A stretch of DNA of 61,473 nucleotides, from NCBI GenBank assembly GCA_022449945.1, contig JAKURM010000003.1:1-61473 (forward strand). The letters run 5' to 3'. The notes under the pieces were generated by a model. The model was not told the DNA's origin and did no database searches. It saw only the letters and a program-made list of their open reading frames with translations. This stretch comes from Candidatus Thalassarchaeum sp. Its GTDB lineage: Archaea; Thermoplasmatota; Poseidoniia; Poseidoniales; Thalassarchaeaceae. This document shows, piece by piece, positions 9,108-17,189 of the stretch. The position numbers and the translations under genes are program-made. Position 1 is the first letter of the stretch. Each line of letters opens with the position of its first letter.

Positions 9108-9332
9108 CTAGTATTTCTTCGACCGGCATTTGGTGCACTGGAAGAACCAAATATCATCTGGATTGGGGCCATACTCCATTCCACATTTTATCTTCCCATA
9201 CTTTGCTGCCCTCTCCTCGTGATTCTCGGGATATGGGATGACGATGCCACAGGTCCGCCCCTCATGACGAGTGATGTGAAATTCACTACTCTCCGATACA
9301 ACCTGACGGACTGGGACTTGCCCCTCAGGCAT
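9108..9332 (-). CDS. Small 4-Cys protein, unknown function, divergent from the Ubl operon
   Basis: 74 aa with Cys at RTCG, KCG and CTKC, so possibly zinc-binding. A TATA-like AAAATATTA (9350-9358) lies about 20 nt upstream of its ATG, so the transcript may be leaderless. Confidence 0.4.
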   Translation of the reverse strand: MPEGQVPVRQVVSESSEFHITRHEGRTCGIVIPYPENHEERAAKYGKIKCGMEYGPNPDDIWFFQCTKCRSKKY

Positions 9333-9467: not shown

Positions 9468-9686
9468 ATGACAGATATCAAGACACTAGTCCAGATCGCT
9501 GATCAGAATGGTCACACCTCCGCGATGATGACGAGAGAAGAAACTCTCGAAGCCGTAGCGGAGAACAATGGCGCCTGGGTTTTCAATGGTGAGGGACAGA
9601 TGGTCCAGCCGGCTCAGCTGGCTGAAGCAGACTTCAGCACCATTGGGACCGTGCGCATCGTGCCAGGTCTGGTAGGCGGACTGTGA
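9468..9686 (+). CDS. Ubiquitin-like / ThiS-MoaD-like beta-grasp protein with masked C-terminal diglycine (…VGGL)
   Basis: 72 aa. The C-terminus TVRIVPGLVGGL-stop resembles ThiS/MoaD/SAMP tails (…GG) but has one extra residue. It has a strong SD and lies immediately upstream of the E1-like and JAB genes. Confidence 0.6.
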   Translation: MTDIKTLVQIADQNGHTSAMMTREETLEAVAENNGAWVFNGEGQMVQPAQLAEADFSTIGTVRIVPGLVGGL

Positions 9687-9781: not shown

Positions 9782-10441
9782 ATGGACATATCAGTAATCG
9801 GGGCGGGCGGCATAGGCTCGAACTTTGTTCGAAGCGTAGCACCTGCAATTTCTACTGGCTCCCTTGTCGAATCACTGGGAGGGGCTAATCTAATGATTTT
9901 CGACTCTGACTCGGTTGAGGAGAAAAACCTGAGACTAGGGCAGAGGTTCGGACATGGCGACCTTGGCCTATCCAAAGTCGAAGCGATAAAGAGGTCGATT
10001 CTTGCGTTCGAAGGAGACCTGTTGAGCGTAGTGGCATACGAGCATGACATCAGGGGGGCTGGCGATATCCAGAAGTCCGACGTTGTGGTAGTTTGCGTGG
10101 ACAACATGCATGCAAGGAGGATTGTGCACTCTCTCGATGTCCCATGGCTAGACCTTCGGTGCTCTGGTGACGGTTACGTCGCAATAGACCACAGAGTGGA
10201 GGCATCAGTAGTTTCGAGCCTGTCAAATGACTCGGTTCATTCCCACTCTTGCCAATTGGAAGGATGGGAATCGGGCTTCCTGCAGGCAGGATTCTTAGCA
10301 GCTGCTGCACATGGATACCAGTGGCTTATCGCTATTATGAGGCAGTTAAGCGGTTTCGAAAGGGCGGTTCTTCCGGAGCCCAGATCCACAAGCGTGACGT
10401 TCGGGACCCTTGGGAAACTGCCTATGTCGGAGGAAATGTGA
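9782..10441 (+). CDS. Minimal ThiF/MoeB/E1-like adenylyltransferase
   Basis: Starts directly with the Rossmann loop VIGAGGIGS. Then come FDSDSVEEKNLRLGQRF (the DxDxVexsNLnRQ block), LSKVEA and CVDNMHARR (the DN..aR block). Only 219 aa, with no CxxC zinc motifs and no rhodanese or E2 fusion. Confidence 0.75.
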   Translation: MDISVIGAGGIGSNFVRSVAPAISTGSLVESLGGANLMIFDSDSVEEKNLRLGQRFGHGDLGLSKVEAIKRSILAFEGDLLSVVAYEHDIRGAGDIQKSDVVVVCVDNMHARRIVHSLDVPWLDLRCSGDGYVAIDHRVEASVVSSLSNDSVHSHSCQLEGWESGFLQAGFLAAAAHGYQWLIAIMRQLSGFERAVLPEPRSTSVTFGTLGKLPMSEEM

Positions 10442-10972
10442 ATGGCGGATAGACCCTTATTACCAAGCCCTCCAGTAGAAGAAATTCTGCATGATCGAGA
10501 GGCAGTTAATATTGCCATAGAAGAGGGCAGGCACTCGTCTCTCATCATATGTGAGACCATAGCCGCCCTAACCAAACTAGGGAGGTTCGAGGAGCTCTGG
10601 AAAATAGCCGATAGCATGTCTAAAGAGGTCAGTGTACTAGTTGACGCAGAAGGAAGGGTCTGGGTAGACATAGGAACGAAGAGCAGCGTGAGATTATCTC
10701 CTGCCCAGGGTTCAGTAATCCCATACAGGCTCTGGCTTCACACACATCCCCACGAGGCCTATGCGAGTCAGACGGATAGAGGCACCCTAGCGGGGTGTTC
10801 CATGATTCTTCATGAGGCCATAGTTCTTGGACATGATCACATGGTCAGGCTTCAGAGAAAGCCGGCAGGAATTGGCAGGTCCCTGGAAGACTATGGACCC
10901 TTGTCTACTTGGACCTCAGATGAAGACATTGTGCTCTACTCCAGCCTCAAGGAGGACTACTATGACAGATAA
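10442..10972 (+). CDS. JAB/MPN+ (JAMM-like) metallopeptidase with N-terminal helical extension
   Basis: LWLHTHPHEAYASQTD (10739-10777) gives HxH-x6-S-xx-D, with an upstream Glu (KEVSVLVDAEG). The ATG directly abuts the E1 stop (TGAATG). Confidence 0.6.
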   Translation: MADRPLLPSPPVEEILHDREAVNIAIEEGRHSSLIICETIAALTKLGRFEELWKIADSMSKEVSVLVDAEGRVWVDIGTKSSVRLSPAQGSVIPYRLWLHTHPHEAYASQTDRGTLAGCSMILHEAIVLGHDHMVRLQRKPAGIGRSLEDYGPLSTWTSDEDIVLYSSLKEDYYDR

Positions 10973-11201
10973 GCTAGAGCAAGCCACCAAGAGGCTAAGG
11001 AGGCTAGCAGAAGGAACCGAAGAAGGAACAAGTGGACTATCTATTTCCTCAATGATCGAGGCAGTGGTCGGGCCCGGCTACGATGACGAGCTTGCGGGCC
11101 TTGTATCCATGGCACTCAGGGCCAGTGAAAGCGGGATGAGCCTTGACGAGATAGCAAAGGGGATTCTGTCATTGGAAGACTGGAGATACAGTCATTCCTG
11201 A
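10962..11201 (+). CDS. 79-aa helical protein, possibly an HTH, translationally coupled to the JAB gene
   Basis: ATG at 10962 overlaps the JAB 3' end by 11 nt and follows GGAGGA (10951-10956). The product is MTDKLEQATKRLRRLAEG...SGMSLDEIAKGILSLED, and the last part resembles a helix-turn-helix. The track ORF 10827-11201 is trimmed to this start. Confidence 0.5.
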   Translation: MTDKLEQATKRLRRLAEGTEEGTSGLSISSMIEAVVGPGYDDELAGLVSMALRASESGMSLDEIAKGILSLEDWRYSHS

Positions 11202-11450
11202 TTGAGCAAAGCCTCACGCTTGTGACTGGAAAACACATGATTAAATACCCGCCATGCCAAACCTAAGACGGCCGGAACCGGGCAATAACTAGAGCCTAGC
11301 GAAAGGGGCCCTTGTTGGCAAAAGGACATGCTGAATCTACATGATTCGGCAATGTTCAATAGCCGCATGGATGCCAGGTCGTTTCCCCGATGATATAGGG
11401 GAATTATGGAAATTTATTTTGTAGCAAGGGAAAGAGAAAAGGTGGGAGAA

Positions 11451-12455
11451 ATGACATCAGAAGAAGAGAGTAATAGTCGTCAAGATGACGATAGAAAATG
11501 TAGCTCATGTGGCTATCATGATCTAATAGAAGATTCAAGGCGTGGCGAGATATTATGCCCCAAATGTGGATCCGTGGAACTAGACCGAATCACCGCCGAG
11601 GATGGCGTGGAGATATCCAGGGGGGAAGAATCCCAAAACACGCCATCTAGGAAACTAGGTTCTGCGGCAATCAGAGGAAAGGACCGTGATGCCAGGAAAC
11701 TTGAGAGGACTAGGAAGAGGGAGGACCGGGAGAGGTCGACATTCCTTAGAGAGATAGAGGAGCTAGCCGAGAACACGATAGAAGGGGAACGGACAAAGCA
11801 AGACGTGATGCGCCTTCTAAGGGACCTAGGAGAAGACGAAGATGAGTCTTCTCTTGCAGATAACCGAAAGAAGAGACAGGGCCTTAGAGACCTCGAAGGA
11901 GGAGAAAGAAGGGCATACAGACAGAGACTGTATCTATCTGGGGCCATGAAGGCTCTGAACGACTCGGGTAGGCCCAATCAGGCACCACAGGTTGCCGAAA
12001 GATGGGGTATAAATCACTCAGACCTAATGGACGTCGCTAAGATGTTCAAGAAGATACTGTCAAGGAGAGGCTGTAGAGAAGACGTAGATGAAGACGAATG
12101 GATGAGGCAGAGGTCGGCAATGCTGCTGTACAATCTGGAAAAGATCAGGGAGTTCTTCGCCCAAACGGAAGGATGGGAAGTTGCAAACGAAGTTTATGCC
12201 AGAGCAATCGAGATTCTGAAGAGCCAGAATGAGCCTTTGCCTCCTGACAACTCCTGCGACAAGAAGGTAGTGGGGAACTTCTGCAACATGGTGGAACATC
12301 GGGCGGCCTGGGAGGCGTTTGTCGCTGGAATGAAGGAGATGGGTTTCTCCGATTCCAAGGTTAGAGGTCTGAGGAAGGAACTACCACTCTCTTCGACAAA
12401 GAACTTCACGGAGAGGCGTTCTGGTGCGCTTTCCGAAGGCGGCGAAGAAGAGTGA
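11451..12455 (+). CDS. Divergent TFB/TFIIB-like transcription factor (Zn ribbon plus one recognisable cyclin-like repeat)
   Basis: CSSCGYHDLIEDSRRGEILCPKCGSVEL (11499-11567) matches the TFB N-terminal Zn ribbon. RLYLSGAMKALNDSGRPNQAPQVAERWGINHSDLMDVAKMFKKIL resembles a TFB cyclin-repeat HTH. The linker is long and highly charged (K/R/E). The start is ambiguous: 11406 from the track, or 11451 preceded by GGTGGGAG. Confidence 0.55.
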   Translation: MTSEEESNSRQDDDRKCSSCGYHDLIEDSRRGEILCPKCGSVELDRITAEDGVEISRGEESQNTPSRKLGSAAIRGKDRDARKLERTRKREDRERSTFLREIEELAENTIEGERTKQDVMRLLRDLGEDEDESSLADNRKKRQGLRDLEGGERRAYRQRLYLSGAMKALNDSGRPNQAPQVAERWGINHSDLMDVAKMFKKILSRRGCREDVDEDEWMRQRSAMLLYNLEKIREFFAQTEGWEVANEVYARAIEILKSQNEPLPPDNSCDKKVVGNFCNMVEHRAAWEAFVAGMKEMGFSDSKVRGLRKELPLSSTKNFTERRSGALSEGGEEE

Positions 12456-14381
12456 TCAAGGGATGTGCTGATCGGATCCTGGCAATAGAGCAGCAGTTCC
12501 GGGGTTTACTCGTTCGAACATACTCCAAAGTGGTGCTGCAATGACTCGGATTCGGCCATTGACAACCAGCCTGTGCTCAAGCATCCCGGCGATTTCCTCC
12601 ACATCGTTCCCCAGATCTGCCTCACCGGTTCCGGTCCTGATGTAGATTCTCAGAGACCCTCTGACTCCCTCTTCAACCTTGTCTCTGATCCAACCAGATG
12701 CCTGTAGCATGCGATACAAGACCTGCCTGTCCTCCATGTTGTATGTCCTGAAAGTGGTCTCGCAGTCGTCGAATGAGACGTTTGGTGGCCCATTCCTGTT
12801 CATTGCAGTGAACGTCATCCTAGAACCGAGGGGCATTCGAAGAAGGACCCCCCATAGACGAGGGAATGATTCTGTGCACCTAGTCTGGGTCCGTGCTATT
12901 CGGTTCCTTGCAAGTTGGTACCGAAGCTCTTCGGCTCGATTGTGGGCTGTAACATCTGGGTTCTGGGCCTGTCTCGGCCTATGCCTTCTGATGTGAGACC
13001 TCAGAGTGTCGATGTGATTCTGACTAGACAGGTCATCTAGCAATGAAAGTACGATCGTACCGATCGCATCGCCAAGTACAAGCCTCCTAAGTTCCGGTCT
13101 CTCGACTATGCAGATTGCCCGATCTCGGAATGCAATCCTCTGACGGAATTGGGGCCATCCATGCTGATGGCCTCTTGCTGGTTCAGCATCGCCCGTAATT
13201 GGACTAACTACGAACCTGGTTGAGTGGCCTCCCCTTCCAGGTCTAACTGCGTATCTCAGTCCGCTAGTTCCACGTACATGTATCTCGGTAGAGTCTTCAG
13301 TTATCTCCGCCCTCTGGTTTGCCTCCAGAACGTTTCTGAGGAAGTTTATCCCATTGACGTCCTTGCCTTCCACTACCCTCATTGGGGTGTCGGCAAAGAT
13401 GTGCTGCTGCAGAGTGCGAACCCGTCGGTGGTCAAAGTGGTCGGGCGGGCTCATAACCCAAGTTACTATTCTAGACCAGACCCTGGGGCAACTGTCGAGT
13501 TCGAGTCTCTTCCATCCGCTATTTCTCCTGACCCTTAGTTGGAGCCTTCCTCGATGAATTCTCAGTGTCGGTGGGACCTTTAGGTCTTCATCTGGAGGAT
13601 CAGTTGTCCAATCCATGCTGATTTGGGAATTGTCCCATCTCCTCAGCCACTCAGTTCCCTTGAACATCCATCTCTGTGCCCTGGGTGTTCTGCTACCAGG
13701 GATCCTGTGCCTCTGGAGCATTTCCATTATCCTGTACTCTCGCATCGAGTTAGTGGTGATAATCAGAGATGCGGGGTGGAATAGAGGGGATGTCTCCGGG
13801 GACATGCCCACGTCTGTAGGCAACTTCGAGCAAGCCAGGTCTATCGATCTGAGCAATAGCTTCCAATTCACCCCTTTGGAAACCCCTGGATGCCTGGAAA
13901 GTACCTTCATCAGACCTCTGTAGGGGATCTTGCAAGGCCGCCCATCTAGGAACCAGTACCCGTGTGCATGGCAAAGGTGACTCCCATCGGGGAGTAGTCC
14001 TCCGCGTGCAAGCTTTCGTAGTATTGCTTCGTGCTGCGAACCAATAGACCTGTTCGATATTACACTGGTTATATCGTCCTCAGAAATACTCCAATCAGGC
14101 GGAGGGACAGAAATTCTGTCCTGGGAACTCTCTCCCAACTGAAATGCCCAATCGTACTCATCATCCTGAATCGATCTTATCCTCGACCAAATCTGAGCTG
14201 GCCTCAATCCTGGTTTTCCAAGTTGGCTCCTCACTCTCAGTATCGTCTCTTTGTCCTGGACAAGGCCTACGTTCTGACCAGTTATGTGAGGAGAGAGGAG
14301 AGTACAAACCTGACATTTCTCCTGGTTTCCTTCAACTTCGCCTTTGCAACATTCGCACTTACGAAGATTGGGGTCATTCAT
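12456..14381 (-). CDS. Large Arg-rich protein of unknown function with N-terminal Zn ribbon (paralog 1)
   Basis: 641-aa uninterrupted ORF with N-terminal CECCKGEVEGNQEKCQVC. It shares several collinear blocks with the upstream gene product. The ATG overlaps the upstream stop (ATGAATGA). Confidence 0.6.
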   Translation of the reverse strand: MNDPNLRKCECCKGEVEGNQEKCQVCTLLSPHITGQNVGLVQDKETILRVRSQLGKPGLRPAQIWSRIRSIQDDEYDWAFQLGESSQDRISVPPPDWSISEDDITSVISNRSIGSQHEAILRKLARGGLLPDGSHLCHAHGYWFLDGRPCKIPYRGLMKVLSRHPGVSKGVNWKLLLRSIDLACSKLPTDVGMSPETSPLFHPASLIITTNSMREYRIMEMLQRHRIPGSRTPRAQRWMFKGTEWLRRWDNSQISMDWTTDPPDEDLKVPPTLRIHRGRLQLRVRRNSGWKRLELDSCPRVWSRIVTWVMSPPDHFDHRRVRTLQQHIFADTPMRVVEGKDVNGINFLRNVLEANQRAEITEDSTEIHVRGTSGLRYAVRPGRGGHSTRFVVSPITGDAEPARGHQHGWPQFRQRIAFRDRAICIVERPELRRLVLGDAIGTIVLSLLDDLSSQNHIDTLRSHIRRHRPRQAQNPDVTAHNRAEELRYQLARNRIARTQTRCTESFPRLWGVLLRMPLGSRMTFTAMNRNGPPNVSFDDCETTFRTYNMEDRQVLYRMLQASGWIRDKVEEGVRGSLRIYIRTGTGEADLGNDVEEIAGMLEHRLVVNGRIRVIAAPLWSMFERVNPGTAALLPGSDQHIP

Positions 14382-16083
14382 CGTTATCCCTCGGCCCCGA
14401 TTGAGGCATTCGCCGAATGCTCTCTAGCATTTCTTCTATTGCTTCTATCCTCCATCCATTCCCGTTGTCGATCGAGAATTCTGGGTCTGATTCGGCAAAT
14501 GGATCGGGCTCCGGCTCGGGCTCCGGCTCGGGCTCCGGCTCTGGTTCGTAGTCTGGTTCGTAGTCTGGATCGTATCCCGGATCATGGAATTCCCCATCCT
14601 CCCACATCTCATAGTGCCCCTCAACAGCTGACCACCAACTGTCCAGATCCCCACCTAGGTCGTATTTCTCATTTACATGTTCACAAGCAGAGAGAAGAAT
14701 GTTGAGAGTGAAAATCTGATTCCTTGAAGATATGTCGTTCCGGAGAGCAAGTACGTATGAGGCGCAGATGTCGCCAGCGCACAGGTTCTTGTTTGCAGAT
14801 ATCTGGTTAGGATCGATGCAAAGTTGGATGTGGACATGTGGTTTTCCTATGTGAGTTGAATTTGGAAGCGCGAAAACCATGAACTTTCCAGAATGTTCAG
14901 ACGGGTTGATTACGTATACTATTCCAGATTCCCCCACTACAAGTATACCCGTACTCTCGTCGGGCATGTGCTTTACTGGAAGGGTGGTCGAGTAGATGCC
15001 CAGCGAGTCAATAGTCTCTCGAAGGAAGCGGGAAGACCTCTCCTGCTGGATTGTTGGCCTCCATTCTGAATCTCGCGAGTCCCAAACCCAAAAGATGTTC
15101 TTCGAGAGCTCTGCTCCGTCTTCCTCTGGAGGGTAAAGAATGGAGTTCACCAGGACTCTCCATACCTTCGCATCGACAACCACCGGAGTCGTAGTCGGTG
15201 TTCCCGACTTTAGAACAATTAGACTGAGTCTTCCCCTTTCCACTACTAGCCTGGGATGTATCCTTATGGAAAACAGCCTGCAGAATTCCTCTTCTTTCCC
15301 TTTGCGGATAATCCCGCTCCAAGCCTCCGAGGCTTCTCCTCCGAATTCCGAAATTAATGATAAGGAGTCTCTTGCAATGCTACCCATCGACTTCTCGGCT
15401 GTTGCTCTTCTTCCCGAAATGAGGGCAATCAGTGAAAGGAAAGGGTGAAGATTTACACCTCGGAACTCCATATCTATCGATGGGTCGGGAACGTCGATTC
15501 CCTGCCACCCATTTTGCCTTAGCCATGGTGACCATTCACGGTCTTCCAAACTGGATATGCTTCTACAGCAGCAACTGAGGGCGAGTAGGAAGTGTTTCCA
15601 AGACCTGATGGCGGTAACTCTGTCCGGATTTGCCAGCCACTCGCAAATGTCCAGCATAGGCAATGGCCCTTCCAACCGTATCCCATCGATGGAAATCCTG
15701 TCTTGATGATCTATCTCTAGAAGGCAGTCTGGAAGGGAGTATAATCCCCTAGGAAGGTACCCATAAATCCTGAATGACTCAAGTGCGGACTTCCAGATTC
15801 CGGAGAATCCTTGCGAACTTACCCCATTGGGGCCCCTAGACGATCTGAATCCTGGTGGAAGATTGCTCTCGGGAAATGCCCCAGCAAGACTTAGCATCTT
15901 CTGCTCCGGGCTTAGCCCCCTGGCAGGGTCAAAGATTGAACTAGAGTGTTCTCGCTGCTTAGAATCCGGCCTCTGCGAATGATGGAGGCCGAAGAATGGC
16001 TCTTGGAGAGACTGACACCCAGCGCATCTCTCGTGTCCATCGGGTGCGCTAGAACCACACCACCCATTGCATGAAGACGGCAT
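14374..16083 (-). CDS. Large protein of unknown function with N-terminal Zn ribbon and acidic EP-repeat tail (paralog 2)
   Basis: 569-aa ORF with N-terminal CNGWCGSSAPDGHERCAGC and a C-terminal YDPDYEPDYEPEPEPEPEPEPEPDP. It begins 41 nt downstream of the dus stop on the same strand. Confidence 0.6.
   Translation of the reverse strand: MPSSCNGWCGSSAPDGHERCAGCQSLQEPFFGLHHSQRPDSKQREHSSSIFDPARGLSPEQKMLSLAGAFPESNLPPGFRSSRGPNGVSSQGFSGIWKSALESFRIYGYLPRGLYSLPDCLLEIDHQDRISIDGIRLEGPLPMLDICEWLANPDRVTAIRSWKHFLLALSCCCRSISSLEDREWSPWLRQNGWQGIDVPDPSIDMEFRGVNLHPFLSLIALISGRRATAEKSMGSIARDSLSLISEFGGEASEAWSGIIRKGKEEEFCRLFSIRIHPRLVVERGRLSLIVLKSGTPTTTPVVVDAKVWRVLVNSILYPPEEDGAELSKNIFWVWDSRDSEWRPTIQQERSSRFLRETIDSLGIYSTTLPVKHMPDESTGILVVGESGIVYVINPSEHSGKFMVFALPNSTHIGKPHVHIQLCIDPNQISANKNLCAGDICASYVLALRNDISSRNQIFTLNILLSACEHVNEKYDLGGDLDSWWSAVEGHYEMWEDGEFHDPGYDPDYEPDYEPEPEPEPEPEPEPDPFAESDPEFSIDNGNGWRIEAIEEMLESIRRMPQSGPRDNDE
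14504..14580 (-). repeat. Short in-frame tandem repeat encoding (DYEP)2(EP)n
   Basis: The plus strand reads GGGCTCCGGCTC GGGCTCCGGCTC GGGCTCCGGCTC TGGTTCGTAGTC TGGTTCGTAGTC TGGATCGTA, that is 12-nt units x3 then x2. Confidence 0.8.
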
Positions 16084-16124: not shown

Positions 16125-17189
16125 TCAGGCATGATTTTTCGGTGTCGACAGGTCTGCCAGATAATCGGATACCATTTGCCCGAGTATTGCCTGATCTGCC
16201 TCGCGGTGCAGCTCGACCCTCATAGAAGAAGCCCCAGAAAGGCCCTTTGTGAACGAGACAGCATGACGTTTGAGATTCTTGTTCCTAATCCCGCCGTAGA
16301 GTTCCTCACACAGTTCTAGGTACCTATTCCAGCACCAATGCCTGGCTACAGAGTCGTCATCTATCCCCCAAGGAGGCTCTCCGGTTTCCCAACCGAGATC
16401 TCTCTTGATTTCGTAGAAAATCGTAGGCCGCCCTATTGCCCCCCGTCCAATCATTAGTCCATCCGCTCCCGTCGCTTCCAGACATGCCTCTGCTGTTTTC
16501 GCATCTACCACATCCCCGTTTGCTATCACGGGAATCTGGACAGAATGTGCAATTTCTCGTATCTGTGACCAATCGGCTATCCCAGAGTAGCGCTGCTTCA
16601 GGGTCCTGCCGTGTACGCAAATCCTCTCTACGCCCTCTGACTCCAACCTCTTGCATATCTCCAAGGCAGTGTTGGGGCCCGAACCGGTGCCGAGCCTCAT
16701 CTTCACGGTGATGGGGACTCTGGCGACCGCGATACACTTCCTGACCATGTCGACAACTCTGTCGGGATCCCTTAGCAAGGCCGCTCCCGCATCATTTCGA
16801 CAGACCTTCGGAGCAGGACATCCGAAGTTGATGTCAATGACATCGGCCCGGTCCTGCAGCATCTCAACCGTCTGAACCATCTCTTCGGTAATTCCCCCGA
16901 ATATCTGTGGGATGAACGGTTCTTCTCTAGGATCCGTCTCGACTTTTAGCCATGAGTATGTGTTTCTCCTGGTTAGTCCCGAGGCTGCGGTGAACTCGGT
17001 GACTGTTACGTCTGCTCCGCACTCCCTCGCTAAAATTCTGTATGCGAGATCGGTAACCCCTGCCATTGGCGCTAGGAATATTGGCTTAGCCTCGCCATCC
17101 ACGATTATCGCCCTAGGTGCTCTCCTTTGAGTGCGTCGTGAACTCAGAAGGTAGATTCCCAGTCTGCGACTTCCTCGGCCAATTCCCAC
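16125..17189 (-). CDS. dus: tRNA-dihydrouridine synthase
   Basis: FLAPMAGVTDLAYR, IDINFGCPAPKV, VKMRLG, VHGRT and IANGD are Dus TIM-barrel blocks. The true start is uncertain, because the first ~46 nt of the ORF overlap rps2. Confidence 0.85.
   Translation of the reverse strand: MGIGRGSRRLGIYLLSSRRTQRRAPRAIIVDGEAKPIFLAPMAGVTDLAYRILARECGADVTVTEFTAASGLTRRNTYSWLKVETDPREEPFIPQIFGGITEEMVQTVEMLQDRADVIDINFGCPAPKVCRNDAGAALLRDPDRVVDMVRKCIAVARVPITVKMRLGTGSGPNTALEICKRLESEGVERICVHGRTLKQRYSGIADWSQIREIAHSVQIPVIANGDVVDAKTAEACLEATGADGLMIGRGAIGRPTIFYEIKRDLGWETGEPPWGIDDDSVARHWCWNRYLELCEELYGGIRNKNLKRHAVSFTKGLSGASSMRVELHREADQAILGQMVSDYLADLSTPKNHA

What the first reader, a model, noticed from the sequence alone, without database searches (positions are those of the whole stretch)
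12456..16083. Two translationally coupled, paralogous large proteins of unknown function, each with an N-terminal Zn ribbon
The 569-aa and 641-aa ORFs overlap as ATGAATGA.

Both start with a 4-Cys ribbon:
- Upstream (569-aa) protein: CNGWC…CAGC.
- Downstream (641-aa) protein: CECC…CQVC.

They share collinear blocks:
- ERGRLSLIVLKSG…KVWRVLV versus HRGRLQLRVRRNSG…RVWSRIV.
- FLRETI…DESTGILVVGESGIVYVINP…KFMVFALP versus FLRNVL…EDSTEIHVRGTSGLRYAVRP…TRFVVSPI.
- LCAGDICASYVLALRNDISSRNQIFTLNILL versus LVLGDAIGTIVLSLLDDLSSQNHIDTLRSHI.

I recognise no known catalytic or structural family in either. The downstream paralog is strikingly Arg-rich and basic in an otherwise acidic proteome, which suggests nucleic-acid binding. 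The upstream one ends in an acidic EP-repeat tail.

A diverged pair of this kind suggests a heteromeric machine. Its position next to the Ubl/E1/JAB operon makes it a candidate partner (target, E2/E3-equivalent or effector), but that link is only positional.
Basis: partly seen in the sequence, partly recalled or inferred. Interest (0 to 1): 0.75.

Follow-up and report, generated by a model that had tools for sequence, protein, structure and literature searches.

The report
Paired archaeal proteins, possible Ubl-conjugating enzymes
Two overlapping genes in a marine Group II archaeon encode diverged sister proteins from an undescribed family found only in that order; the family shares a small cysteine-containing domain that may be the missing "E2" enzyme of the ubiquitin-like tagging system next door, but this is not proven.

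Summary
ORF A (569 aa, 14374-16083, minus strand) and ORF B (641 aa, 12456-14381, minus strand) overlap as ATGAATGA. Both are under purifying selection (dN/dS 0.07-0.13). They are paralogues from the N-terminal 4-Cys ribbon to about residue 470 (hhalign E 2.5e-24).

Neither protein matches Pfam, NCBIfam, PADLOC, PHROGs or PDB. Both belong to a superfamily seen only in Poseidoniales (MGII archaea). It is built on a module of about 135 residues with four invariant residues: G371, C424, D438 and D450 (B numbering).

In Thalassarchaeaceae, B lies tail-to-tail with a Ubl(GG+1-2)-E1-JAB-80aa-TFB-like operon in 28 of 30 informative loci. The two exceptions carry a stand-alone module gene inside the operon.

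The AlphaFold model of B has UBC-like secondary-structure order. Its top Foldseek hit is an E2 enzyme in both PDB and BFVD, but no hit is significant, and profile comparison with E2s is null.

B orthologues in Poseidoniaceae have the TFB-like neighbour but no cassette.

Best reading (confidence about 0.4): A and B are divergent E2-like, possibly E2/E3-hybrid, Ubl-conjugating proteins.

The parts
14374..16083 (-). ORF A, 569 aa, acidic paralogue (pI 4.86)
   Evidence: dN/dS is 0.09-0.13.
16015..16071 (-). A N-terminal 4-Cys Zn ribbon (C5, C9, C20, C23)
   Evidence: The four Cys are at least 90% conserved in alignment A2. Codons checked.
14659..15066 (-). A conserved module (about residues 340-475), with invariant C422 (14818-14820), G437-D438 and D450
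14377..14598 (-). A acidic, EP-rich, low-complexity C-terminal tail (residues 496-569). It is predicted disordered except for a short terminal helix.
   Evidence: (pLDDT below 50 for residues 496-545)
14374..14381 (-). ATGAATGA overlap: B's start codon lies inside A's 3' end, indicating translational coupling
   Evidence: An overlap is conserved in 15 of 15 related loci.
12456..14381 (-). ORF B, 641 aa, basic Arg-rich paralogue (pI 9.72). It is the member found throughout Poseidoniales.
   Evidence: dN/dS is 0.07.
14304..14357 (-). B N-terminal 4-Cys Zn ribbon (C9, C12, C23, C26)
   Evidence: The four Cys are invariant in alignment A3. Codons checked.
12966..13379 (-). B conserved module (residues 335-472). 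Predicted order: helix, four-stranded beta-meander, long loop, invariant C424 (13110-13112), short helix, then helices. Invariant G371, D438 and D450. Candidate UBC/E2-like domain.
12459..12965 (-). B-specific C-terminal alpha/beta domain (residues 473-641), also present in MGIIa orthologues
11406..12455 (+). 349-aa protein with a TFB/TFIIB-type N-terminal Zn ribbon. It is the last gene of the Ubl operon and abuts B's stop codon tail-to-tail. It is conserved next to B orthologues even in MGIIa.
10962..11201 (+). Conserved helical protein of about 79 aa ('s80') between JAB and the TFB-like gene
10442..10972 (+). JAMM/JAB-like peptidase, 176 aa (EVSV...HTHPx6Sx2D). Recognised by motif and by its fusion to E1 in relatives; it has no Pfam hit.
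9782..10441 (+). Minimal ThiF-type E1, 219 aa (GAGGIG; invariant Cys in LDLRC and SCQ). It has no rhodanese domain.
9468..9686 (+). 72-aa Ubl candidate ending ...VPGLVGG-L

Best explanation
A and B are two paralogues of a Poseidoniales-specific protein family. Each has an N-terminal Zn ribbon, a family-specific middle region, and a module of about 135 residues.

The module has the secondary-structure order of a UBC (E2) domain: helix, four-stranded beta-meander, loop carrying an absolutely conserved Cys (B C424, A C422), short helix, then helices.

Proposed mechanism, all steps inferred:
1. The JAB peptidase trims the one or two residues after the Ubl's GG.
2. The minimal ThiF-type E1 adenylates the Ubl. 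It probably also thioesters it, since the E1 has invariant Cys residues.
3. The Ubl is passed to the module Cys of A and/or B.
4. A and B, through their Zn ribbon, middle region and (in B) the basic C-terminal domain, select the targets themselves. They would thus act as E2/E3 hybrids, possibly as an A-B heteromer where A exists.

The TFB-like protein encoded in the same operon is a plausible partner or target.

Shown here: paralogy, family limits, invariant residues and gene linkage. Inferred: the fold assignment, the chemistry and the targets.
For: 1. Module definition. The A+B core profile finds 233 proteins among 1.84 billion representatives. Every one that a source names comes from Poseidoniales. 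They include proteins of about 430 aa and stand-alone proteins of 215-340 aa that keep only this module. G371, C424, D438 and D450 are 100% conserved across 149 non-redundant members.

2. Fold. The AlphaFold2 model of B has mean pLDDT 82, and mostly 86-96 in the module outside its long loop. Its element order is a1(339-354), b1-b4(358-395), loop, C424, 3-10 helix, a2(436-448), a3/a4. Foldseek against PDB gives E2 UBE2S as top hit, and 17 of the top 50 hits are UBC/UEV-fold proteins (UBE2G1, UBE2N, UBE2R1, Pex4, Atg10, TSG101/Vps23 UEV, VPS37A UEVL). Against the independent BFVD library the top hit is again an E2 (Catovirus), with E2s also at ranks 9, 11 and 30.

3. Linkage. Of 30 metagenome loci with at least 3.5 kb downstream of the E1-JAB gene, 28 have B. 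The other two (L072, L089) have the stand-alone module gene SL co-directional in the operon. All 10 loci with both flanks visible have at least one module protein. The same gene order is seen in GTDB genomes at 30-90% identity of B.

4. The cassette looks like a conjugation system rather than a sulfur-carrier system. The Ubl ends in GG plus 1-2 variable residues. The E1 has no rhodanese domain and is fused to, or abuts, JAB. Iyer et al. 2006 (PMC1779556) found that this feature marks operons that also encode an E2-like protein. No other gene in the operon is an E2 candidate.

5. In MGIIa B orthologues the Cys is usually followed by His at +2 (C-I/L-H). This parallels the S333/H335 pair of the non-canonical E2 BubB (PMC11601596).
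Against: 1. No Foldseek hit is significant. The best E-values are 0.46-0.47, probabilities are at most 0.35, and target-normalised TM-scores of the E2/UEV hits are 0.17-0.41 in PDB and 0.06-0.36 in BFVD. The output gives no query ranges, so placing the match on the module is my inference.

2. The model of A (pLDDT 77, weaker in the module) gave only noise and no E2 hit.

3. There is no sequence-level signal. Pfam UQ_con and Prok-E2 families never hit. hhalign of the module, SL or SS profiles against 11 canonical E2s gives probability below 1%; for the SL profile the score of 13.0 equals the shuffled null of 12.7 +/- 2.5.

4. A and B have no HPN-like motif upstream of the Cys.

5. B orthologues in Poseidoniaceae and the paralogue of about 430 aa next to Trm1 have no Ubl/E1/JAB cassette within 10 kb. 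All named E1-JAB homologues are from Thalassarchaeaceae. The family therefore has a role that does not need this cassette.

6. B and the operon are convergent, not co-transcribed.
Confidence: 0.4

Rival explanations
1. A and B are nucleic-acid- or transcription-associated factors that work with the neighbouring TFB-like Zn-ribbon protein. The Ubl system either modifies them (they would be substrates or regulated platforms) or simply shares the locus. The invariant Cys/Asp/Asp would serve a different active site or a structural role.
For: - The only neighbour of B conserved across the whole order is the TFB-like gene, including in MGIIa, where no cassette is present.
- B is strongly basic (pI 9.72, 12% Arg), and both proteins start with Zn ribbons.
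- The neighbourhood is rich in transcription-type genes. These are the TFB-like protein (1pft ribbon, E 1.5e-7), small PF13453 Zn-ribbon proteins upstream of A in many loci, and a T7-like RNA polymerase next to the operon in some lineages.
- There is a precedent for Ubl modification of a basal transcription factor in archaea: H. volcanii TBP2 (PMC4895103, listed).
Against: - No DNA- or RNA-binding fold was detected in either model.
- Stand-alone module proteins without a Zn ribbon or basic domain sit inside the Ubl operon and persist when B, A and TFB-like are absent. This ties the module itself, not the DNA-binding-looking parts, to the cassette.
- A single invariant Cys plus two Asp across 149 members suggests catalysis rather than a scaffold.
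Confidence: 0.25
2. The link to the cassette is synteny only. A and B are lineage-specific proteins with an unrelated, still unknown function, and the resemblance to E2 is a chance topological similarity.
For: - All E2 similarity is below significance.
- B is convergent with the operon, and MGII genomes are compact with strongly conserved gene order.
- Family members occur elsewhere without the cassette.
Against: - The module reappears as separate genes (SL, SS) inside the operon in 23 of 80 loci. Among loci with enough flank, the cassette was never seen without a module gene: 30 of 30 downstream-informative loci and 10 of 10 loci with both flanks visible.
- E2 is the top hit in two independent structure libraries in which E2s are rare (my estimate, not measured).
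Confidence: 0.2
3. The Ubl is a sulfur carrier (ThiS/MoaD/Urm1/CysO-type thiocarboxylate). A and B are Cys-dependent sulfur-transfer or RNA-modifying enzymes that use it, with basic B binding tRNA.
For: - Ubl + E1 + JAMM trios are known in sulfur-carrier pathways such as CysO/Mec+ (own knowledge).
- A lies directly downstream of Dus in the window. The third paralogue overlaps the Trm1 gene.
- The module has an invariant Cys, and B is basic.
Against: - No rhodanese, PP-loop, cysteine desulfurase, MoaE or ThiG-type gene appears in any version of the locus.
- The E1 lacks a rhodanese domain and is fused to JAB, a pattern that Iyer et al. associate with E2-containing systems.
- The Dus adjacency is limited to close relatives (L004-L006).
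Confidence: 0.1
4. The locus is an anti-virus defence system of the Bil/Bub/CBASS type, or part of a mobile element.
For: - Ubl/E1/E2/JAB operons in bacteria are often defence systems (PMC11601596).
- The E1 weakly hits PADLOC E1-E2 (Cap2-type) models, E 5e-5.
- A T7-like RNA polymerase lies nearby in some lineages.
Against: - The locus has the same chromosomal context (AMP-binding, LysE, methylmalonyl-CoA mutase neighbours) across relatives down to 30% identity. This marks it as core genome, not a variable island.
- A and B have no PADLOC or PHROGs hits.
- No integrase or transposase was seen in the gene calls of L001-L003 and L041 or in the window ORFs scanned between 4092 and 24368.
Confidence: 0.03

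Closest known systems
UBC/E2 ubiquitin-conjugating enzymes, especially non-canonical prokaryotic E2s (Cap2 E2 domain, Bil E2, BubB)
   Same: - Predicted element order: helix, four-stranded meander, loop with an invariant nucleophile, short helix, helices.
- Best structural neighbours in both PDB and BFVD.
- Encoded beside Ubl + E1 + JAB.
- A polar or His residue two positions after the nucleophile in part of the family, as with S333/H335 in BubB.
   Different: - No significant structural or sequence similarity.
- No HPN motif.
- The module is embedded in proteins of 570-870 aa with an N-terminal Zn ribbon and unique domains.
- Invariant Asp438 and Asp450 have no obvious E2 counterpart.
- Family members exist without a nearby E1 or Ubl.
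Prokaryotic Ubl-E1-JAB-E2 operons of Iyer, Burroughs and Aravind 2006 (class 6a-6e), which include the later Bil and Bub systems
   Same: - A Ubl precursor with residues after GG.
- An E1 without a rhodanese domain that is fused to or adjacent to JAB.
- Extra small helical and metal-binding proteins in the operon.
   Different: - Archaeal, and confined to one family (Thalassarchaeaceae).
- Core-genome context rather than mobile or patchy distribution.
- The E2 candidate is convergent, duplicated and very large.
- The operon ends with a TFB-like gene.
E2/E3 hybrid enzymes such as UBE2O and BIRC6 (own knowledge)
   Same: Large proteins in which a UBC-type domain is combined with substrate-binding regions, so no separate E3 is needed.
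   Different: Eukaryotic, with canonical UBC domains. No homology to A or B was detected.
Archaeal SAMP/UbaA/HvJAMM1 system
   Same: An archaeal Ubl with C-terminal GG, a ThiF-type E1 and a JAMM peptidase. It can modify transcription factors (TBP2).
   Different: Sampylation needs no E2. UbaA is a longer MoeB-type enzyme with dual sulfur-carrier function. The genes are dispersed, and no Zn-ribbon/module protein is involved.
Caldiarchaeum/Asgard eukaryote-like Ub-E1-E2-RING-Rpn11 operons
   Same: An archaeal operon with a full Ubl toolkit.
   Different: Those components are readily recognised by Pfam as eukaryote-type Ub, UBC and RING. Here only the E1 has a Pfam hit.

Membership tests
UBC/E2 superfamily | UBC fold (a1, four-stranded antiparallel meander, a2-a4), shown by significant structural similarity | tested here: inconclusive
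   The AF2 model of B has the right order of elements. E2 is the top Foldseek hit in PDB and BFVD, and 17 of the top 50 PDB hits are UBC/UEV folds. However, E is at least 0.46, and target-normalised TM is 0.17-0.41 for the PDB hits and 0.06-0.36 for the BFVD hits. The model of A gives no E2 hit.
UBC/E2 superfamily | Invariant catalytic Cys in the loop between the meander and helix a2 | tested here: met
   C424 (B) / C422 (A) is 100% conserved in 149 non-redundant family members and sits at that position in the predicted topology.
UBC/E2 superfamily | HPN (or equivalent His) motif about 10 residues upstream of the Cys | tested here: not met
   The loop before the Cys in A and B is variable, with no conserved His/Pro/Asn. 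Only the stand-alone SL relatives have an invariant E-x-H-P 13 residues upstream.
UBC/E2 superfamily | Significant sequence or profile similarity to UQ_con or Prok-E2 families | tested here: not met
   No Pfam hit for 68 B members, 33 short paralogues, or the SL/SS proteins. hhalign against 11 E2s gives probability below 1%; for the SL profile the score equals the shuffled null. The Prok-E2 profiles themselves could be searched only through hmmscan.
UBC/E2 superfamily | Forms a thioester with an E1-activated Ubl | not testable with these tools
   Needs biochemistry.
Prokaryotic Ubl-E1-JAB(-E2) conjugation operons (Iyer 2006 class 6; Bil/Bub) | Small beta-grasp-type modifier ending in GG, often with extra residues to be trimmed | tested here: met
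   The 72-aa protein ends in VPGLVGG-L. Across 80 loci the tail is PGL(V/T)GG plus 1-2 variable residues or a longer extension. The beta-grasp fold itself was not tested, and there is no Pfam hit.
Prokaryotic Ubl-E1-JAB(-E2) conjugation operons (Iyer 2006 class 6; Bil/Bub) | ThiF-type E1 without a rhodanese domain, fused to or adjacent to a JAB peptidase | tested here: met
   PF00899, E 3e-14. E1 and JAB are one protein of 396-422 aa in L001, L002, L013, L021 and L030, and are split by TGA-ATG in the window. The JAMM motif is HxHx6Sx2D.
Prokaryotic Ubl-E1-JAB(-E2) conjugation operons (Iyer 2006 class 6; Bil/Bub) | A recognisable E2-like gene in the operon | tested here: inconclusive
   The only candidates are the module proteins: B and A (convergent), and SL and SS (in the operon). 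Their E2 nature is unproven.
Defence islands (Bil/Bub/CBASS) | Patchy distribution, variable genomic context, hits to defence-system models | tested here: not met
   The chromosomal context is conserved. A and B have no PADLOC hits.
Sulfur-carrier Ubl systems (ThiS/MoaD/CysO/Urm1) | Association with rhodanese, MoaE, ThiG, CysM or PP-loop thiolase genes | tested here: not met
   None were found in any locus version by Pfam.
Zn-ribbon proteins | Two CxxC-type knuckles conserved across homologues | tested here: met
   B C9/C12/C23/C26 are invariant. A C5/C9/C20/C23 are at least 90% conserved. The paralogues of about 430 aa keep the pattern. Metal binding was not tested.

The most novel reading that the evidence does not exclude
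A, B and their relatives (SL, SS, the paralogue of about 430 aa, and the MGIIa orthologues of about 800 aa) define a previously unrecognised class of E2-like enzymes unique to Poseidoniales. Several are giant E2/E3 hybrids with Zn ribbons. Together they would form a lineage-specific ubiquitin-like conjugation network that is wired to transcription machinery: a TFB paralogue and, in some lineages, a T7-like single-subunit RNA polymerase encoded in the same gene string.
Probability: 0.25. Interest if true: 0.8.

Novelty: new variant of a known kind. Interest (0 to 1): 0.62.

Why it matters
Marine Group II archaea are among the most abundant archaea in the surface ocean and remain uncultured, so conserved genes of unknown function are the main gap in understanding them.

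If the module is an E2, Thalassarchaeaceae would have a complete ubiquitin-like conjugation system of their own design. It would comprise a Ubl precursor, a minimal E1, a JAB peptidase and several very large E2-like paralogues. That would add an independent archaeal branch to the history of ubiquitin-type signalling. It would also give a defined set of proteins (Ubl, E1, JAB, A, B) that can be tested in vitro without culturing the organism.

If the module is not an E2, the family is still an order-wide, strongly constrained, multi-paralogue protein family with an invariant Cys/Asp/Asp signature, and its chemistry is unknown.

Tried and rejected
- **Family libraries.** Pfam, NCBIfam, PADLOC and PHROGs scans of A and B; Pfam scans of 68 B homologues, 33 short paralogues and five SL/SS proteins; a PHROGs scan of one SL, one SS and one third-paralogue protein. 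None gave a family hit. The only outputs were low-complexity matches to A's EP tail.
- **PDB sequence searches.** Profiles of B, of the core and of SL found nothing relevant.
- **Foldseek of the A model.** Only RdRp and ribosomal noise, with TM 0.07.
- **hhalign against a hand-typed alignment of 11 eukaryotic E2s.** Null for every region of A and B, for the 149-sequence module profile, and for SL and SS. A 100-shuffle control confirmed that the SL score is background. My visual match of 'ICIVE / LCID / VEVHP...ACIQ' to E2 'HPN...ICLD' therefore has no statistical support, and I do not use it as evidence.
- **TFIIB-like factor (Rrn7/Brf-type) for A and B.** Rejected. The models are mixed alpha/beta, with no cyclin-fold hits.
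- **TOPRIM, PD-(D/E)xK or Cys-protease readings of the Cys/Asp/Asp signature.** Rejected for lack of the required invariant Glu, Lys or His and because the predicted secondary structure does not fit.
- **In-frame TGA between E1 and JAB as selenocysteine or readthrough.** Rejected in favour of an ordinary gene split. The codon order is stop then ATG, and the same split occurs in many lineages with TGA or TAG.
- **Third paralogue in the window.** None found.
- **Alignment-based locus scans.** Two attempts failed because the alignments were too divergent. Both were repeated successfully with narrower alignments.
- **Literature.** Searches found no description of this family or of an MGII Ubl system.

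Full report
**Observation.** The two ORFs are exactly as described. A is 14374-16083 (-), 569 aa. B is 12456-14381 (-), 641 aa. B's ATG lies inside the last codons of A (…G ATG AAT GA C…). Both begin with a 4-Cys ribbon. A ends in an EP-rich acidic tail. B is basic (pI 9.72, 12% Arg) in a window whose long ORFs have a median pI near 5. BLASTP between them gives E 8e-10. Profile against profile gives 99.6% probability, E 2.5e-24, over 426 columns that run from the Zn ribbon to about residue 470. After that point B has its own domain of about 170 residues, and A has its disordered acidic tail. dN/dS against close relatives is 0.07-0.13. The stop/start overlap (1, 4, 8 or 17 nt) is kept in all 15 related loci where I could measure it.

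**Organism and family limits.** The closest homologues are from Candidatus Thalassarchaeaceae MAGs, that is Marine Group II b, order Poseidoniales. B has over 120 clusters of homologues and A only 20; all are 'hypothetical'. No library recognises either protein: Pfam, NCBIfam, PADLOC, PHROGs and PDB sequences all gave nothing.

A profile of the shared core (B 262-472 plus A 268-475, alignment A4) was searched against 1.84 billion representative proteins and found 233 hits. Every hit that a source names is from Poseidoniales. The family has several forms:
- B orthologues in Poseidoniaceae (MGIIa), 750-870 aa. They match the B profile over 1-461 and 473-593, with an insertion of 150-190 residues.
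- A third MGIIb paralogue of about 430 aa. It has the Zn ribbon and ends right after the last about 120 positions of the core.
- Two kinds of stand-alone proteins that contain little more than those about 120 positions: SL, about 300 aa, and SS, about 215 aa.

That stretch is therefore an independent module. Over 149 non-redundant members, four positions never change: G371, C424, D438 and D450 in B numbering.

**Gene neighbourhood.** On the other strand, ending exactly where B ends, lies a five-gene string:
- a 72-aa protein ending VPGLVGG-L;
- a 219-aa ThiF-type E1;
- a 176-aa JAMM-motif protein that starts right after the E1's TGA;
- a helical protein of about 79 aa;
- a 349-aa protein whose N-terminus is a TFB/TFIIB Zn ribbon.

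In other lineages E1 and JAB are one polypeptide of 396-422 aa. The small protein always ends in GG followed by one or two variable residues, or by a longer tail. This is the signature of a Ubl precursor trimmed by its JAB.

The whole arrangement (Ubl, E1-JAB, s80, TFB-like, then convergent B and A) recurs in GTDB genomes where B is only 30-45% identical.

Taking the cassette as the starting point, I fetched 80 metagenome loci with an E1-JAB profile and annotated them with HMMs:
- Of 30 loci with at least 3.5 kb downstream, 28 have B.
- The two that lack B, A and TFB-like (L072, L089) carry SL co-directionally upstream of the Ubl.
- All 10 loci with both flanks visible have at least one module protein.
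- SL or SS is present in 23 of the 80 loci.
- A is absent next to B in some lineages (L014, L017, L057, L086).

So B is the constant partner and A a frequent duplicate.

The link is not symmetrical. Three MGIIa loci show the B orthologue convergent with a TFB-like Zn-ribbon gene, with a secreted protein of about 295 aa between them, but no Ubl/E1/JAB within 10 kb. The paralogue of about 430 aa sits between an AIR-synthase-family gene and Trm1. Every E1-JAB homologue that carries a taxon name is from Thalassarchaeaceae.

**What the module might be.** The AlphaFold2 model of B is good overall (mean pLDDT 82; the module is mostly 86-96 apart from a disordered loop at 398-420). The module reads helix 339-354; strands 358-360, 367-370, 376-381 and 390-395; loop; C424; short helix 429-432; then helices 436-448 and 450-467. 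That is the order of elements in a UBC (E2) domain, with the Cys at the catalytic position.

Foldseek against PDB finds nothing significant (best E 0.47). Still, the top hit is UBE2S, and 17 of the first 50 hits are UBC or UEV domains, including Atg10, Pex4 and TSG101. Against the independent viral library BFVD the top hit is again an E2 (Catovirus; E 0.46, probability 0.30), with three more E2s in the top 30. By my estimate (not measured) E2s are about 1% of PDB chains and far rarer in BFVD, so UBC is the nearest known fold. Target-normalised TM-scores of 0.17-0.41 (PDB hits) and 0.06-0.36 (BFVD hits) do not establish it. The output gives no query ranges, so assigning the match to the module is my inference.

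Everything else I tried was negative:
- The A model (weaker in the module) returned noise.
- No member of any subfamily hits Pfam UQ_con or Prok-E2.
- hhalign of the module, SL and SS profiles against 11 canonical E2s gives background values; the SL score of 13.0 equals the shuffled null of 12.7 ± 2.5.
- A and B lack an HPN-like motif.

**Weighing the readings.** The cassette has the hallmarks that Iyer et al. (PMC1779556) tie to E2-containing conjugation operons rather than sulfur-carrier systems: an E1 without rhodanese that is fused or adjacent to JAB, and a Ubl with a trimmed tail. Yet it has no recognisable E2. The only proteins that always accompany it share one module with an invariant Cys and UBC-like topology. 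That makes 'divergent E2-like, probably self-targeting (E2/E3-hybrid) conjugating proteins' the best single explanation. I hold it at about 0.4, because the fold evidence is sub-threshold and the family clearly also functions where no cassette is nearby.

The main rival (about 0.25) is that A and B are transcription- or nucleic-acid-associated factors partnered with the TFB-like protein, and are substrates or neighbours of the Ubl system. It is supported by the order-wide B/TFB-like pairing, by B's charge, and by the transcription flavour of the region. Pure synteny (about 0.2), a sulfur-relay or tRNA-modification role (about 0.1) and a defence system (about 0.03) are less likely, for the reasons given under each rival.

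**Novelty.** I found no paper describing this family or an MGII Ubl system. If the best explanation holds, it is a new variant of a known kind of system (prokaryotic Ubl-E1-JAB-E2 operons). It would be unusual in being archaeal, core-genomic and multi-paralogue, and in being built on very large Zn-ribbon proteins.

Noticed in passing
window 9782-10972 (+); junction at 10439-10444: The E1 (219 aa) and the JAB-like protein (176 aa) are in the same frame, separated only by TGA followed directly by ATG. In L001, L002, L013, L021 and L030 the two form one fused protein of 396-422 aa. In nine other lineages they are split as here. This is recurrent fusion or fission of an E1-JAB enzyme.
   Followed up: yes
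window 9468-9686 (+); L042-L121: The Ubl candidate ends ...PGL(V/T)GG plus 1-2 variable residues (L, LY, LC, I, HY, F, E...). One lineage ends in ...GPALAAG with no extra residue. Some loci have a second Ubl gene with a long tail after GG (…GGPLPEEEST / …GGTPKEESA).
   Followed up: partly
window 11406-12455 (+); L038 11294-12457, L039 13301-14476, L040 13353-14285: A protein of 310-390 aa with a TFB/TFIIB-type Zn ribbon (PDB 1pft, E 1.5e-7) is the last gene of the Ubl operon. It is also the only neighbour of B orthologues conserved in MGIIa, where the cassette is missing. Whether the rest of the protein is a cyclin-fold TFB core was not established.
   Followed up: partly
L072 98-4159, L089 1405-5505, L068 2703-6845, L053 39-3539 and seven other related loci; not in the window: A T7-like single-subunit RNA polymerase of about 1350 aa (Pfam PF00940, E 3e-45; motifs DASSNGYQH and VHDAFGT intact) lies close to the Ubl cassette in several Thalassarchaeaceae contigs. 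In L072, L089, L068 and L053 it is directly upstream of the SL gene on the same strand. In L008 it is on the opposite strand, and in L057 and L049 it is 2-5 kb away. The contigs otherwise carry cellular genes. I found no literature on such an enzyme in MGII archaea.
   Followed up: partly
L072 4326-5264, L089 5669-6616, L002 15782-16432, L042 2728-3381 and others: Stand-alone module proteins SL (about 300 aa, invariant E-x-H-P...A-C-I-Q) and SS (about 215 aa) are encoded co-directionally upstream of the Ubl, followed by a conserved protein of 240-269 aa with no known domain. L072 and L089 keep SL and the cassette but lack TFB-like, B and A.
   Followed up: partly
L035-L037 8001-9293: A third Thalassarchaeaceae paralogue (about 430 aa: Zn ribbon plus module, 156-member cluster) lies between an AIR-synthase-family gene and Trm1, and overlaps Trm1 by 29 nt. 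It is not present in this 61-kb window.
   Followed up: partly
window 16125-17189 (-): A dihydrouridine synthase gene sits 41 nt upstream of A on the same strand, so Dus-A-B may be one transcript. The adjacency is seen only in close relatives (L004-L006). Elsewhere a small PF13453 Zn-ribbon protein lies upstream of A or B, transcribed divergently from them.
   Followed up: partly
window 9108-9332 (-): A 74-aa Cys-containing ORF (…CGIV…CTKCRSKKY) divergent from the Ubl gene is conserved in L005, L007 and L010 (34-89% identity).
   Followed up: no
L038 10370-11248, L039 12360-13253, L040 12425-13312: In MGIIa, a protein of about 295 aa with a signal peptide, a YTATWCxNCV (thioredoxin-like CxxC) motif and a C-terminal membrane anchor is inserted between the B orthologue and the TFB-like gene.
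   Followed up: no
P0237 (871 aa); P0142 (6161 aa): P0237 carries two copies of the module (residues 83-193 and 513-607). P0142 is a 6161-aa protein that matched the core profile in 59 short stretches, probably a repeat artefact around the G-x-S-G...Y strand motif.
   Followed up: no
L017 12971-14185 and 14310-14920: One lineage has an extra 404-aa gene of unknown family between the E1 and two tandem Ubl genes, and has B without A.
   Followed up: no
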